In this document: positions 57,401-60,400 of the stretch, piece by piece
Position numbering within the stretch: position 1 is the stretch's first letter
How the letters are laid out: every line of letters begins with the position of its first letter
Assembly (NCBI RefSeq): GCF_013167455.1
Contig: NZ_CP038328.1
Reading direction: 5' to 3' (one strand)
Source of the DNA: Escherichia coli O157:H7
GTDB lineage: Bacteria > Pseudomonadota > Gammaproteobacteria > Enterobacterales > Enterobacteriaceae
DNA: 64,000 bases
Made by a program: the position numbers

Positions 57401-60400
57401 TGCACAGTCCACCACCAGTCGATTGGCGTCGTCGGTGGTGATAGCTCAAATTCAAAACGAGATTATCGCTATGGTCACTCAGCTCGCATTCCGCGATGTA
57501 AAATTCACTCCTATAAATCACAACAACCAGATCTGGTTTACCAGCAAAGAATTGGCGGCAGCATTAAAATATGCCAGCACCAAAGCAGTAACCGACATCT
57601 ACAACAAAAATATTGATGAGTTTACTGACGGAATGTCTCAGGTCGTCGAATCAACGACCTCAGGAAATTATCGTAAGAAGACTCGCATTTTCTCCCTCCG
57701 TGGCGCCCATCTGATCGCCATGTTCGCCCGCACTCCTGTGGCCAAAGAATTCCGCCGCTGGGTGCTGGATATTCTTGATCGAGAAATTCAACAATCCCCA
57801 ATCACAAAACAATTCACTGATAACGAACTTTGCACACTTGCTTGGTTATGGCGGGCAAGTGACACAATGTTAACCGCTTGCCAAAACGTCACTCCGCTTC
57901 TTCAGGTAGCAGAACACCGCGAAGCCGGTCGCTTCACTTCAATCGAACAAGAATATCCCCGGATACTCAATAAGGCACAGGCAATCCTTGCCAGAGAAAC
58001 GGCACATGTAAAATTCCGGCCGTGGCAGGATGATAAGTGGAGTCGAGTATTGACGCATTTACGTTCTGAACGGCTGTAATAAAGTTGCGGGAGAGAAATG
58101 CCGCTAGTATTTTGTAATTAATTGAATGCTGACGGTTTAATGAGAAGTCAAGAACACTACTTGTACTATAATCGTTCGATGTTAGTGAGGGTTTGATGCA
58201 AAAAATGAAGTGATTGACCCTAAATTTGCGCGATCAGCGACAGATTGTACACCGAGATCCTGTGGGCTGGAATTTGCAGAGAAATACCGAAAATGATATC
58301 CAATATTGTTTTCAGTTCCTACATCATACCTGATAAGGGTATAATCATAAAAATTAGGATAATTCAAGTTATAATTGTATGAATAAAAACGACCTTGAAG
58401 CATTATCTGACACTAGGCTTAATGAGGCCAAATGCTTGCTTGATCATGGCTTTTTTCATGGTGCATATTATCTTTGTGGGTATGCAGTTGAATGTGCATT
58501 GAAGGCCTGTATTGCCAAGTCATTTTTACAACATGAGTTTCCAAACAAAAAAGTCGTAAATGATTCATATACTCATGATTTGTCGCAACTTCTCAAAATT
58601 GCCAACTTACATCAAATTTTGATTGCTGACGCAAAAAATGATGTTTCGTTGGAGATTAACTGGTCGGTCGTTAAAGACTGGAGCGAGCAATTTAGATACG
58701 ACAATAACATAAGTAAAGCTATGGCCGAACAATTGTTTGATGCTGTAGGTGACCAAAATTCTGGAGTTTTGAAATGGGTAAAAGCACACTGGTAATCGGC
58801 AGAGAGTTGACAAAAGATATGGAATTCTCAGGTCAATTTTTGTTAAAAAAACTCAAGTTACAGAATTTAACTATTGATGCTGCAATGTGGTTTTATTACC
58901 CAGATCTATCTTGGAGATATATTTTAGTTATCAGTGACTTCTCAGAACGTGGGCCGGCAGAAATATATAGAAAAATCAGTGAGATAAATAGAAATAGCAT
59001 ATCAAAAAAGTATAAGCCGATACCATTAGAAGCAATTGAGGCTAAGGGGGATTCAGCTTTTGTTTATAAAATGTTAAAAGGATTTGCTAGAGTCAACGAT
59101 GGTAAAGTTCGCGTTTCTAATTCTATGGTAAATGGTTTAGAAATCGTTGACTGTCTGATCTATGAGTTAAAATAAGAAATCTCTTACTGGGTATCATTAT
59201 TGTTTAAATGACTTTTGATTTTCAATAATCAACTTGTCATAATTAAGTCACCGGAGTTTGAACTCCTCCGGTGACTTCTGCGCTAAACGGGGACGTTTAT
59301 GCGCACATACAATCTAAACTATCTTCTCCCGTCACAGATGCAGAAATGCACCTGCGATTTTCTTTATCCAGCGTTTGACCTCTGCGGAGGTGAAGCGTGA
59401 ACCTCCCACAAGACGGCATCAAACTGCATCGCGGTAACTTCACCGCTATCGGTCAGCAGCTCCAGCCTTATTTGGAAGACGGCAAGTGCTTTCGCATGGT
59501 GCTTAAACCGTGGCGCGAGAGACGCAGTCTTTCCCAGAATGCACTTAGCCACATGTGGTACAGCGAAATCAGTGAATACCTTATCCGCAGGGGGAAATCG
59601 TTCGCTACCGCAGCATGGGTAAAAGATGCTCTCAAACACACATACCTCGGTTATGAAACCAAGGACCTGGTTGATGTCGTAACCGGCGAAATCACTACTA
59701 TCCAGTCGTTACGCCATACCTCCGATCTTGATACCGGAGAGATGTATGTCTTCCTGTGTAAGGTTGAAGCCTGGGCGATGAATATTGGCTGCCACCTGAC
59801 TATTCCGCAGAGCTGCGAGTTCCAGCTGCTGCGCGACAAGCAGGAGGCGTAATGGCTACACCGCTTATTCGTGTCATGAACGGACACATCTACAGAGTAC
59901 CAAATCGTCGTAAGCGTAAGCCTGAGCTAAAACCATCCGAAATACCAACACTGCTCGGATATACCGCCAGCCTGGTTGATAAAAAATGGTTGCGACTGGC
60001 AGCAAGGAGGAATCATGGCTGATTTGAGAAAAGCAGCGCGTGGTCGCGAATGCCAGGTAAGAATCCCTGGCGTATGCAATGGCAACCCTGAAACGTCTGT
60101 ACTGGCACATATCCGGCTGGCTGGACTGTGTGGCACCGGTATTAAACCGCCAGACCTTATTGCCACCATTGCCTGTTCTGCCTGTCACGACGAAATCGAC
60201 CGCCGCACGCATTTTGTCGATGCTGAGTACGCAAAAGAATGCGCGCTGGAAGGTATGGCGAGAACGCAGGTTATCTGGCTGAAAGAGGGGGTAATCAAGG
60301 CGTGAATACCTACAGCATCACATTACCCTGGCCTCCGAGCAATAATCGCTATTACCGCCATAATCGCGGGCGCACGCACGTCAGCGCAGAGGGGCAGGCA

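What the first reader, a model, noticed from the sequence alone, without database searches (positions are those of the whole stretch)
58379..59175. AT-rich two-gene cassette: HEPN-like protein plus overlapping unknown partner in the nin region
Seen in sequence: a 138-aa ORF with a HEPN-type signature (GFFHGAYYLCGYAVECALKA and a downstream THDL histidine) is followed by a 133-aa ORF of unknown fold that overlaps it by 22 nt, implying translational coupling. The pair is AT-rich, has its own TATAAT-containing upstream region, and lies between P and ninB where lambdoid phages commonly carry accessory genes. HEPN domains are RNase effectors in many toxin-antitoxin and abortive-infection systems. 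The partner lacks the minimal nucleotidyltransferase motif (G[SG]...D.D), so this is not a canonical HEPN-MNT pair, and the HEPN gene comes first, the reverse of the usual MNT-HEPN order. Inference: a toxin-antitoxin or Abi-like module of uncharacterised type.
Basis: partly seen in the sequence, partly recalled or inferred. Interest (0 to 1): 0.75.

Follow-up and report, generated by a model that had tools for sequence, protein, structure and literature searches.

The report
Prophage HEPN gene with unnamed partner
A lambdoid prophage carries a mobile two-gene cassette, a HEPN (RNase-type) protein translationally coupled to a partner from a widespread unnamed family, which looks like an uncharacterised toxin-antitoxin or abortive-infection module but has never been tested.

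Summary
ORF1 (58379-58795, 138 aa) and ORF2 (58774-59175, 133 aa) overlap by 22 nt in an AT-rich block between the replication genes and ninB.

The pair is strictly linked. All 50 scorable loci, across several phyla, have the partner directly downstream, and 25 of 28 distinct sequences keep the 22-nt overlap. Both genes are under purifying selection (dN/dS 0.04-0.13). The cassette is in 189 of 5,426 complete E. coli genomes and moves between unrelated contexts.

Best reading: a toxin-first HEPN toxin/effector plus protein antitoxin or sensor, a new variant of HEPN-based TA/Abi systems. Toxicity, RNase activity and defence are all untested. No dedicated promoter is supported.

The parts
58379..58795 (+). 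ORF1, a 138-aa HEPN-domain protein (HEPN-T / AF0298-like class). Predicted site residues: E38 (58490-58492), H66 (58574-58576), R106 (58694-58696).
58774..59175 (+). ORF2, a 133-aa partner protein from a widespread unnamed alpha/beta family. Invariant G20, W39, W47, D126, Y130; near-invariant R113, G60, Y65, G121.
58763..58795 (+). Translational-coupling region: the GGAG Shine-Dalgarno (58763-58766) lies inside the codons for invariant Gly129 of ORF1, followed by the 22-nt overlap of ORF1's 3' end with ORF2's 5' end (58774-58795).
   Evidence: The overlap is 22 nt in 25 of 28 distinct HEPN sequences across phyla, 7 nt in 2 and 25 nt in 1. A GGAG/GGA-like motif is conserved upstream of the partner start.
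58050..59250 (.). AT-rich block containing the cassette (GC 0.31-0.38 against about 0.51 in the flanks). Homology to lambdoid phages that lack the cassette resumes at about 59212.
   Evidence: Composition profile. Megablast to the phage collection matches only from query position 1111-1115 onward, which is window 59210-59214.
56893..57054 (+). Upstream copy of a 162-nt direct repeat (the ninB-leader element). Together with the copy at 59215-59376 it brackets the 2.3-kb antirepressor-like gene plus HEPN pair.
   Evidence: the repeat finder D1: 81% over 162 nt, spacing 2322. The alignment shows a core of about 97 nt at about 93% identity. Cross-locus blastn.
59215..59376 (+). Downstream copy of the repeat. 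It contains a promoter-like site (59215-59243), a 10-bp perfect hairpin (59247-59275) and the start of a 33-codon leader ORF before ninB.
   Evidence: Promoter scan hit TTGATT-17-CATAAT. Equivalent to the phage 82 X92588 annotations: putative -35 and -10, possible regulator-binding site, orf33.
57471..58079 (+). Context gene: an antirepressor (Ant)-like protein immediately upstream of the cassette. It is variably present in other prophages that carry the pair.
   Evidence: PHROG anti-repressor families, e.g. phrog_245 E=9.6e-56. PGAP name 'P22AR C-terminal domain-containing protein'. Presence/absence table.

Best explanation
This is a mobile, two-gene, toxin-first module carried as a prophage accessory cassette. 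ORF1 is a small HEPN protein of the AF0298-like HEPN-T class. Its predicted RNase site uses the motif arginine (R106), an alternative histidine from the insert between helices 2 and 3 (H66), and a helix-2 glutamate (E38), presumably assembled across a HEPN dimer. ORF2 is translated by coupling to ORF1, through a Shine-Dalgarno inside ORF1 and a 22-nt overlap. That should keep the two proteins in fixed stoichiometry. ORF2 is inferred to bind ORF1 and keep it inactive, as a protein antitoxin or sensor rather than as an enzyme. Loss or titration of the partner, for example during infection by another phage or after loss of the element, would free the HEPN to cleave RNA and arrest growth. Shown here: the HEPN fold and site configuration, the new partner family, the strict gene linkage and conserved overlap, purifying selection on both genes, and mobility between contexts. 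Inferred: RNase activity, toxicity, neutralisation by binding, and any anti-phage role.
Against: No experiment bears on toxicity, RNase activity or defence. The canonical Rx4-6H histidine is absent, and RNase activity of AF0298-type HEPN-T proteins is itself only predicted. No promoter is detectable upstream of ORF1, so expression in the lysogen, which a defence role needs, is unproven. The genes could be expressed only from the early rightward transcript. In one genome (L003, Catalinimonas) the partner carries a premature stop while the HEPN is intact. If that is real, the HEPN is not lethal on its own there. The partner hits nothing in PADLOC, and the HEPN hits only a candidate family (PDC-M28A) weakly.
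Confidence: 0.55

Rival explanations
1. The partner is a degenerate, catalytically dead descendant of the minimal nucleotidyltransferase (MNT) antitoxin. On this reading the module is a rearranged HEPN-MNT system that has reverted from enzymatic (type VII, AMPylation) to purely binding (type II) neutralisation. This refines the best explanation rather than excluding it.
Confidence: 0.3
2. It is a canonical-type HEPN-MNT (type VII) system in disguise: the partner is an active nucleotidyltransferase that AMPylates a tyrosine of the HEPN protein.
For: The weak NTase-fold resemblance. An invariant tyrosine (Y107) sits directly after the motif arginine, loosely recalling the modified Tyr of HepT's RX4HXY motif (PMC7641770, listed).
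Against: There is no GS...DxD motif. Only one invariant acidic residue (D126) exists in the whole family, too few for two-metal catalysis. No profile similarity to MNTs. The gene order is reversed.
Confidence: 0.05
3. It is not a toxin system. The HEPN protein is a non-catalytic RNA- or nucleotide-binding protein, and the pair serves a regulatory or housekeeping role, for the phage (early-region gene expression or RNA handling) and for the bacteria that carry it.
For: No dedicated promoter. The location is in the early rightward operon, just before ninB. The canonical catalytic His is absent. In L003 the HEPN is intact with a truncated partner. Some copies sit inside ordinary metabolic neighbourhoods such as purM-purH. 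Inactive HEPN domains acting as binders are known, for example MtlR and MNT-fused HEPNs (PMC3710099).
Against: Patchy cross-phylum distribution at about 50% identity, association with IS elements, TA islands and several unrelated phage types, and presence in only 3.5% of E. coli genomes all argue for a selfish or accessory element. The invariant E38/H66/R106 set matches the predicted alternative active site. Insertion into a conserved operon is itself typical of TA modules.
Confidence: 0.2
4. It is a phage counter-defence or inter-phage competition factor acting during lytic growth, for example an RNase directed at host immune RNAs or signalling nucleotides, with the partner as a specificity or regulatory subunit.
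For: The early-region position in several temperate phages. HEPN enzymes can degrade cyclic oligoadenylates (PMC6599890, listed).
Against: Many copies are chromosomal with no phage genes nearby. Nothing links the pair to any particular host defence system.
Confidence: 0.07

Closest known systems
HEPN-MNT (HepT/MntA) toxin-antitoxin modules, type II/VII
   Same: A small stand-alone HEPN protein paired with a small alpha/beta protein in an overlapping bicistron. Mobile, with patchy distribution. ORF1's fold is closest to classical MNT-associated HEPN-T structures: TT1696, AF0298, ST0689.
   Different: The partner has no MNT motif or profile similarity. The HEPN gene is first rather than second. 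The canonical Rx4-6H His is missing. Enzymatic AMPylation is implausible.
AF0298-like HEPN-T clade and AbiV (alternative-histidine HEPN site)
   Same: The motif Arg is kept and the motif His is lost. A conserved His lies in the insert between helices 2 and 3, and an acidic residue in helix 2 (PMC3710099); ORF1 has R106, H66 and E38. In AbiV the HEPN gene comes first and a downstream second gene is needed for neutralisation.
   Different: No AbiV model in PADLOC matches ORF1. AbiV is about 200 aa, and the studied lactococcal AbiV uses R91/H97. Its neutraliser is reported to be an RNA, whereas ORF2 is a protein conserved across phyla under purifying selection.
HepS of the Gifsy-1 prophage (solo HEPN abortive-infection anticodon nuclease)
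   Same: A HEPN gene carried in the accessory slot of a lambdoid prophage, between the replication genes and the nin/antirepressor region (PMC13043305).
   Different: HepS has a canonical R100-H105 motif, acts alone as a tetramer, and has no co-occurring partner. ORF1 always has a partner and lacks the motif His.
RnlA-RnlB / LsoA-LsoB
   Same: Toxin-first operon: a HEPN RNase toxin neutralised by direct binding of a small, fast-evolving protein antitoxin, with an anti-phage role (PMC8266594, listed). This is the functional model proposed here.
   Different: No sequence or profile relationship was detected. RnlA is a large multidomain protein; ORF1 is a minimal 138-aa HEPN.
PADLOC candidate PDC-M28 (untested defence candidate)
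   Same: ORF1 and its cross-phylum homologues hit the PDC-M28A profile, which is also 138 positions long (E 1.8e-7 to 9e-10).
   Different: The match is weak and partial (profile positions about 10-108). No PADLOC model matches the partner or seven of its relatives. I could not inspect what PDC-M28's second component is, and no paper mentions it.

Membership tests
HEPN superfamily | Four-helix up-down HEPN fold | tested here: met
HEPN superfamily | Profile match to a HEPN family (Pfam PF05168) | tested here: met
   E=1.7e-5, residues 12-118. Most homologues carry a precomputed PF05168 hit. The PDB sequence-profile search finds nothing, so the sequence signal is weak.
HEPN superfamily | Canonical Rx4-6H catalytic motif | tested here: not met
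   R106 is invariant, but no His (or Asp) is conserved 5-7 residues downstream; those columns are variable or gapped.
AF0298-like HEPN-T / AbiV-type site | Motif Arg kept, alternative conserved His in the helix-2/helix-3 insert, acidic residue in helix 2 | tested here: met
   R106, H66 (between helices 26-47 and 68-74) and E38 are invariant in 24 cross-phylum sequences. Criteria from PMC3710099.
HEPN-MNT TA system | Partner carries an MNT domain (PF01909/PF18765) with the hG[GS]...D.D motif | tested here: not met
HEPN-MNT TA system | MNT gene 5' of the HEPN gene | tested here: not met
   HEPN is 5' in every scorable locus examined. The usual order is from PMC3710099.
HEPN-MNT TA system | Nucleotidylation (AMPylation) of the HEPN toxin by the partner | not testable with these tools
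   Needs biochemistry or mass spectrometry. It is implausible because only one acidic residue is invariant in the partner.
Type II toxin-antitoxin module (generic) | Strictly linked, co-oriented, overlapping two-gene operon that moves as a unit | tested here: met
   50 of 50 loci. 22-nt overlap in 25 of 28. Variable contexts.
Type II toxin-antitoxin module (generic) | Toxin arrests growth; the antitoxin neutralises it by binding | not testable with these tools
   Indirect evidence only: one locus with the HEPN deleted and the partner retained, and one with the partner truncated and the HEPN intact.
AbiV | Match to AbiV family models | tested here: not met
   The PADLOC scan at E<=1 returns only PDC-M28A for ORF1.
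HepS (solo prophage HEPN) | Single-gene system without a conserved partner, with canonical R-x4-H | tested here: not met
   A partner is always present and there is no canonical His. Criteria from PMC13043305. The HepS sequence itself was not available for comparison.
PADLOC PDC-M28 | Both components match the PDC-M28 models | tested here: inconclusive
   The A component matches weakly (E 1.8e-7; down to 9e-10 for homologues). Nothing matches the partner. The composition of PDC-M28 could not be inspected.

The most novel reading that the evidence does not exclude
The pair is a widespread, previously unnamed anti-phage abortive-infection or toxin-antitoxin family. In it a new-fold-family partner, possibly a dead relic of the MNT antitoxin, holds an AF0298-type HEPN RNase inactive and releases it on sensing infection. 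This would give the first demonstrated function and active-site mechanism for the classical 'alternative-histidine' HEPN-T clade, and would add a defence system present in about 3.5% of complete E. coli genomes, including O157:H7 prophages.
Probability: 0.3. Interest if true: 0.7.

Novelty: new variant of a known kind. Interest (0 to 1): 0.55.

Why it matters
HEPN RNases are recurrent effectors of bacterial immunity and toxin-antitoxin systems, yet the classical HEPN-T clade (AF0298/TT1696-like, lacking the canonical histidine) has no demonstrated activity.

This cassette offers a compact and genetically tractable E. coli example: two genes in about 800 bp, with three predicted site residues to mutate. 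Its partner family has at least 808 sequence clusters and no name in any library searched.

If the pair is a toxin-antitoxin or abortive-infection module, that would define a new HEPN partner class. It would show that HEPN neutralisation does not need an MNT enzyme. It would also add to the defence or accessory load of EHEC prophages; the same prophage carries a SIR2 defence candidate.

If the pair is not toxic, it becomes a case of a conserved non-catalytic HEPN heterocomplex, which is also informative.

Tried and rejected
1. MNT homology of the partner. I retrieved a real MNT (1wot) with a consensus-like query, collected its homologues, aligned 22 of them (A4) and ran hhalign against the partner family. 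The probability was 0.2%. The only local alignment paired the partner's VRVSNSMVNG with the MNT's VRVFGSVARG and was not significant. Rejected as evidence.

2. Sequence-profile searches of the PDB with both family alignments. Nothing meaningful came back: pyruvate oxidase at E 0.03 for the partner and beta-phosphoglucomutase at E 1 for the HEPN.

3. Pfam on all 30 partner members. The only hit is a DUF1508 C-terminal fusion in one member.

4. PADLOC on seven partner relatives. There was one chance-level DruH hit at E 0.02.

5. A genome-contig scan seeded with the partner alignment failed because no stretch was conserved enough. I ran no further search on the HEPN alignment, since viral loci, contig look-ups and AFDB hits already showed breadth and linkage.

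6. Dedicated promoter or terminator for the cassette: not supported.

7. Literature searches found nothing describing the pair. Terms tried: PDC-M28, the RefSeq protein accessions, the PHROG ids, HEPN+lambdoid/ninB, HEPN with novel antitoxin, NetFlax+HEPN, and prophage-encoded two-gene HEPN systems. The Acidovorax 'double-ribonuclease' TA paper proved irrelevant.

8. The reverse assignment (partner as toxin, HEPN as antitoxin) was considered. It is disfavoured because the partner survives intact where the HEPN is deleted, and because the HEPN is the more conserved, enzyme-like component.

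Full report
**1. Observation**

The ORF listing and the raw sequence confirm ORF1 at 58379-58795 (+, 138 aa) and ORF2 at 58774-59175 (+, 133 aa), which share 22 nt. The quoted peptide strings are present. GC falls to 0.31-0.38 across about 58050-59250, against about 0.51 on either side. 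A GGAG lies at 58763-58766, 7 nt before the ORF2 ATG.

The claim of a dedicated promoter is not supported. TATAAT strings occur at 58340 and 58370, but the consensus scan finds no + strand sigma-70-like site upstream of ORF1. The region holds fewer sites than shuffled controls, 3 against 4.8.

Both ORFs are real genes. Against seven diverged phage copies (71-79% nucleotide identity by blastn), dN/dS is 0.04-0.13 for ORF1 and 0.06-0.10 for ORF2.

**2. Setting**

The window matches a lambdoid prophage found in E. coli O157:H7 and other strains. The cassette occurs at >=99% identity in 189 of 5,426 complete E. coli genomes, always chromosomal and once per genome. PGAP names the two genes 'HEPN domain-containing protein' and 'hypothetical protein'.

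The local gene order is: O-like replication gene, P, a minus-strand 115-aa gene, an antirepressor-like gene, ORF1, ORF2, a 33-codon leader ORF, ninB/ybcN, ninE, DUF1364, rusA, ylcG, Q. The minus-strand gene belongs to Pfam VCH_CASS14 (integron cassette protein, E 6e-20). The antirepressor-like gene is assigned by PHROGs.

Among 50,697 deposited phage genomes, only Klebsiella phage Kp4864-1 encodes the pair, at about 59% amino-acid identity. IMG/VR prophage-derived contigs give 43 loci.

**3. ORF1 is a HEPN domain with the alternative-histidine site**

- Pfam gives PF05168 at E=1.7e-5. PADLOC gives only a weak hit to the untested candidate PDC-M28A. NCBIfam gives nothing. PHROGs gives phrog_5737, function unknown.
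- An AlphaFold2 model built on 24 cross-phylum homologues is confident (pLDDT 92.6) and all-helical.
- The family is very well conserved, at about 50% identity between E. coli, Chloroflexi, Bacteroidota, Woeseiaceae and Chthoniobacterales.
- Invariant residues are R13, G28, Y30, Y31, G34, Y35, E38, C39, K42, F54, P55, H66, N94, W95, W101, R106, Y107 and G129.
- The canonical Rx4-6H histidine is absent. R106 is followed by variable, partly gapped columns.

Anantharaman et al. 2013 describe this situation for AF0298-like HEPN-T proteins and AbiV. The basic residue of the motif is kept and the His is lost. A second strongly conserved His comes from the insert between helices 2 and 3, and an acidic residue in helix 2 sits near the site (PMC3710099). 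ORF1's R106, H66 (between helices 26-47 and 68-74) and E38 fit that description.

I could not measure distances in the model, so spatial convergence of these residues is inferred.

**4. ORF2 founds a large unnamed family**

- The word-indexed search found only 32 close clusters, from Enterobacteriaceae and Acinetobacter.
- An exhaustive profile search found 808 representatives at E<=1e-3 and 122 at E<=1e-10, nearly all 120-150 aa.
- No Pfam, NCBIfam or PADLOC model matches ORF2 or its relatives. The PDB has no sequence-level relative.
- Foldseek against AFDB50 gives 170 hits at E<=1e-3. Nearly all of the 50 listed are 'Uncharacterized protein', of about 105-160 aa, from many phyla including Firmicutes and CPR bacteria.
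- The model is confident (pLDDT 92.5). Its element order is helix 14-29, strands 34-42 and 46-53, helix 56-74, strand 88-91, helix 96-101, then a C-terminal hairpin at 112-119 and 122-132.
- Across 30 diverse members, the invariant residues are G20, W39, W47, D126 and Y130. R113, G60, Y65 and G121 are nearly invariant. The strongest motif, R-x-x-N-x-x-N-G-x-x-I-x-D-x-x-I-Y, lies in the C-terminal hairpin.

**5. Is ORF2 a hidden MNT?**

I tested homology directly by building an alignment of true MNTs and running a profile-profile comparison. The probability was 0.2%.

The family also lacks the GS...DxD motif and has a single invariant acidic residue. It is therefore not a member of the MNT family and almost certainly not a nucleotidyltransferase. 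Whether it is a dead structural relic of one remains open; I put that at about 0.3.

**6. The two genes are one unit**

HMMs for both families were run over all six-frame ORFs of every fetched locus. All 50 loci with room downstream carry the partner immediately after the HEPN gene on the same strand. That includes the most distant HEPN, at 27% identity (L051). The only exception, L050, is cut by the contig end.

Chromosomal copies in Chloroflexi, Bacteroidota and Woeseiaceae show the same arrangement.

From the partner side, three of four distant representatives have a HEPN gene upstream. In the fourth (L052/L053) a remnant of the last ~27 HEPN codons still overlaps the intact partner by 22 nt.

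The overlap is 22 nt in 25 of 28 distinct sequences, 7 nt in two and 25 nt in one. A GGAG/GGA-like motif falls in the codons of invariant Gly129. Such deep conservation of the junction argues for obligatory translational coupling.

In the same cross-phylum loci the HEPN is about 50% identical and the partner about 26% identical. This asymmetry is typical of a constrained enzyme toxin with a faster-evolving antitoxin.

**7. Mobility**

- In enterobacterial lambdoid prophages the pair always sits just upstream of ninB/ninE/DUF1364/rusA, but what lies upstream varies. The antirepressor and VCH_CASS14 genes may be present or absent, and the replication modules differ.
- In an Acinetobacter element it follows an IS3 transposase and precedes umuDC.
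- In a Firmicute-type phage it lies between an integrase remnant and HNH/terminase genes.
- In a Woeseiaceae genome it sits in an island with HicB, PIN and Fic genes.
- In Chloroflexi it is wedged between purM and purH.

Nucleotide homology among diverged lambdoid copies starts 20-45 nt before the ORF1 ATG and ends at or just after the ORF2 stop. The transferable unit is therefore essentially the two genes.

**8. How it probably works**

The best-supported model is a toxin-first HEPN module.

- ORF1 dimers would form an RNase site from R106, H66 and E38.
- ORF2, made in fixed ratio through coupling, would bind and silence ORF1.
- Loss, degradation or titration of ORF2 would release the RNase and stop growth. 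This gives addiction to the element, abortive infection against competing phages, or both.

Functional precedents exist:

- RnlAB and LsoAB have a HEPN toxin first and a small protein antitoxin.
- AbiV has the HEPN RNase gene first and a downstream neutraliser.
- HepS is a HEPN defence gene in a comparable accessory slot of a lambdoid prophage.

There are points against this model. There is no experimental evidence. There is no detectable promoter, so lysogenic expression is unproven. RNase activity for this HEPN-T class is untested. In one genome (L003) the partner has a premature stop while the HEPN is intact. The opposite decay case (L052/L053) balances that, but each is a single observation.

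I give this model 0.55. The rivals are:

- a non-toxic RNA-binding or regulatory heterocomplex (0.2);
- a phage counter-defence factor (0.07);
- an active AMPylating MNT (0.05).

**9. Comparison with known systems, and novelty**

By fold and site configuration, ORF1 is a member of the HEPN superfamily, in the HEPN-T/AF0298-like branch. The pair is not a member of HEPN-MNT: the partner's domain and the gene order were both tested and not met. It is not AbiV, HepS or RnlAB, and it can be linked to PADLOC's PDC-M28 only by a weak match to one component.

No paper in the searchable library mentions the proteins, their PHROGs or such a pair. NetFlax explicitly missed HEPN systems.

I rate it a new variant of a known kind: a HEPN-based two-gene conflict system with a new partner family. 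Interest is moderate (0.55). The module is widespread, cleanly defined and easily testable, but its function is inferred and the general theme (HEPN toxin plus neutraliser) is familiar.

**10. Other observations**

A 162-nt direct repeat (56893-57054 and 59215-59376) brackets the 2.3-kb antirepressor-plus-HEPN segment. It is 81% identical overall, with a core of about 97 nt at about 93%. It corresponds to the element that phage 82's record annotates as a putative promoter, an inverted-repeat 'possible regulator-binding site' and the orf33 leader upstream of its ninB homologue. The duplication suggests module insertion by recombination at this conserved linker. The upstream copy is a candidate source of transcription for the antirepressor and HEPN genes.

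The same prophage carries a 535-aa SIR2-family gene beside its repressor (51143-52750, minus strand). It matches the PADLOC candidate PDC-S25 at E 8e-235.

Noticed in passing
window 56893-57054 and 59215-59376: A 162-nt direct repeat (81% overall, with a core of about 97 nt at about 93%) brackets the 2.3-kb antirepressor-like gene plus HEPN pair. It corresponds to phage 82's annotated putative promoter, inverted repeat and orf33 leader upstream of the ninB homologue. This suggests module insertion by recombination at a conserved linker, and a possible upstream transcription start for the cassette.
   Followed up: partly
window 59247-59275: A perfect 10-bp hairpin (GTCACCGGAG...CTCCGGTGAC) lies just after a promoter-like site (59215-59243). 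It has no T-run, so it is not a typical intrinsic terminator. Phage 82's record calls the equivalent sequence a 'possible regulator-binding site'. The upstream repeat copy has a degenerate version.
   Followed up: partly
window 56371-56718 (- strand): A 115-aa gene in a second AT-rich island between P and the antirepressor-like gene. It matches Pfam VCH_CASS14 (integron cassette protein, E 6e-20) and phrog_5959 (function unknown), with no PADLOC hit. It is another mobile accessory gene of unknown role, variably present among related prophages.
   Followed up: partly
window 51143-52750 (- strand): A 535-aa SIR2-family protein beside the prophage repressor. It matches the PADLOC defence candidate PDC-S25 (E 8e-235) and has a ThsA-like SIR2 region (E 1e-21). 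The same prophage therefore carries a second likely defence gene.
   Followed up: partly
L052/L053 2439-2965 (GCA_018722605.1): The HEPN gene is reduced to its last ~27 codons while the overlapping partner gene is intact. Immediately downstream are a DUF4326 gene and two AAA_15/AAA_21 ATPase genes, a defence-island-like neighbourhood.
   Followed up: partly
L003 about 4390-4857 (Catalinimonas alkaloidigena GCA_029504655.1) compared with L004: The partner gene has a premature stop at about codon 20 (GAA to TAA relative to an otherwise matching metagenomic copy), while the HEPN protein is identical and intact. This is either a sequencing error or evidence that the HEPN alone is tolerated.
   Followed up: no
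L056 654-1211 (protein P0242): One partner homologue carries a C-terminal DUF1508 domain fusion (Pfam E 1e-13). A few others (P0248, P0255, P0293) have unrelated C-terminal extensions.
   Followed up: no
L037 4786-10227 (Acinetobacter-type element): The pair lies directly after an IS3-family transposase (orfA/orfB) and before umuC/umuD-like genes and a large caspase-like protein.
   Followed up: no
window 57234-57470: The long ORF starting at TTG 57234 extends the antirepressor-like gene by 79 residues. That extension hits PHROG 'transcriptional regulator' families (E about 1e-9 to 1e-11), whereas PGAP starts the gene at 57471. It may be a remnant of, or a fusion to, a regulator domain.
   Followed up: no
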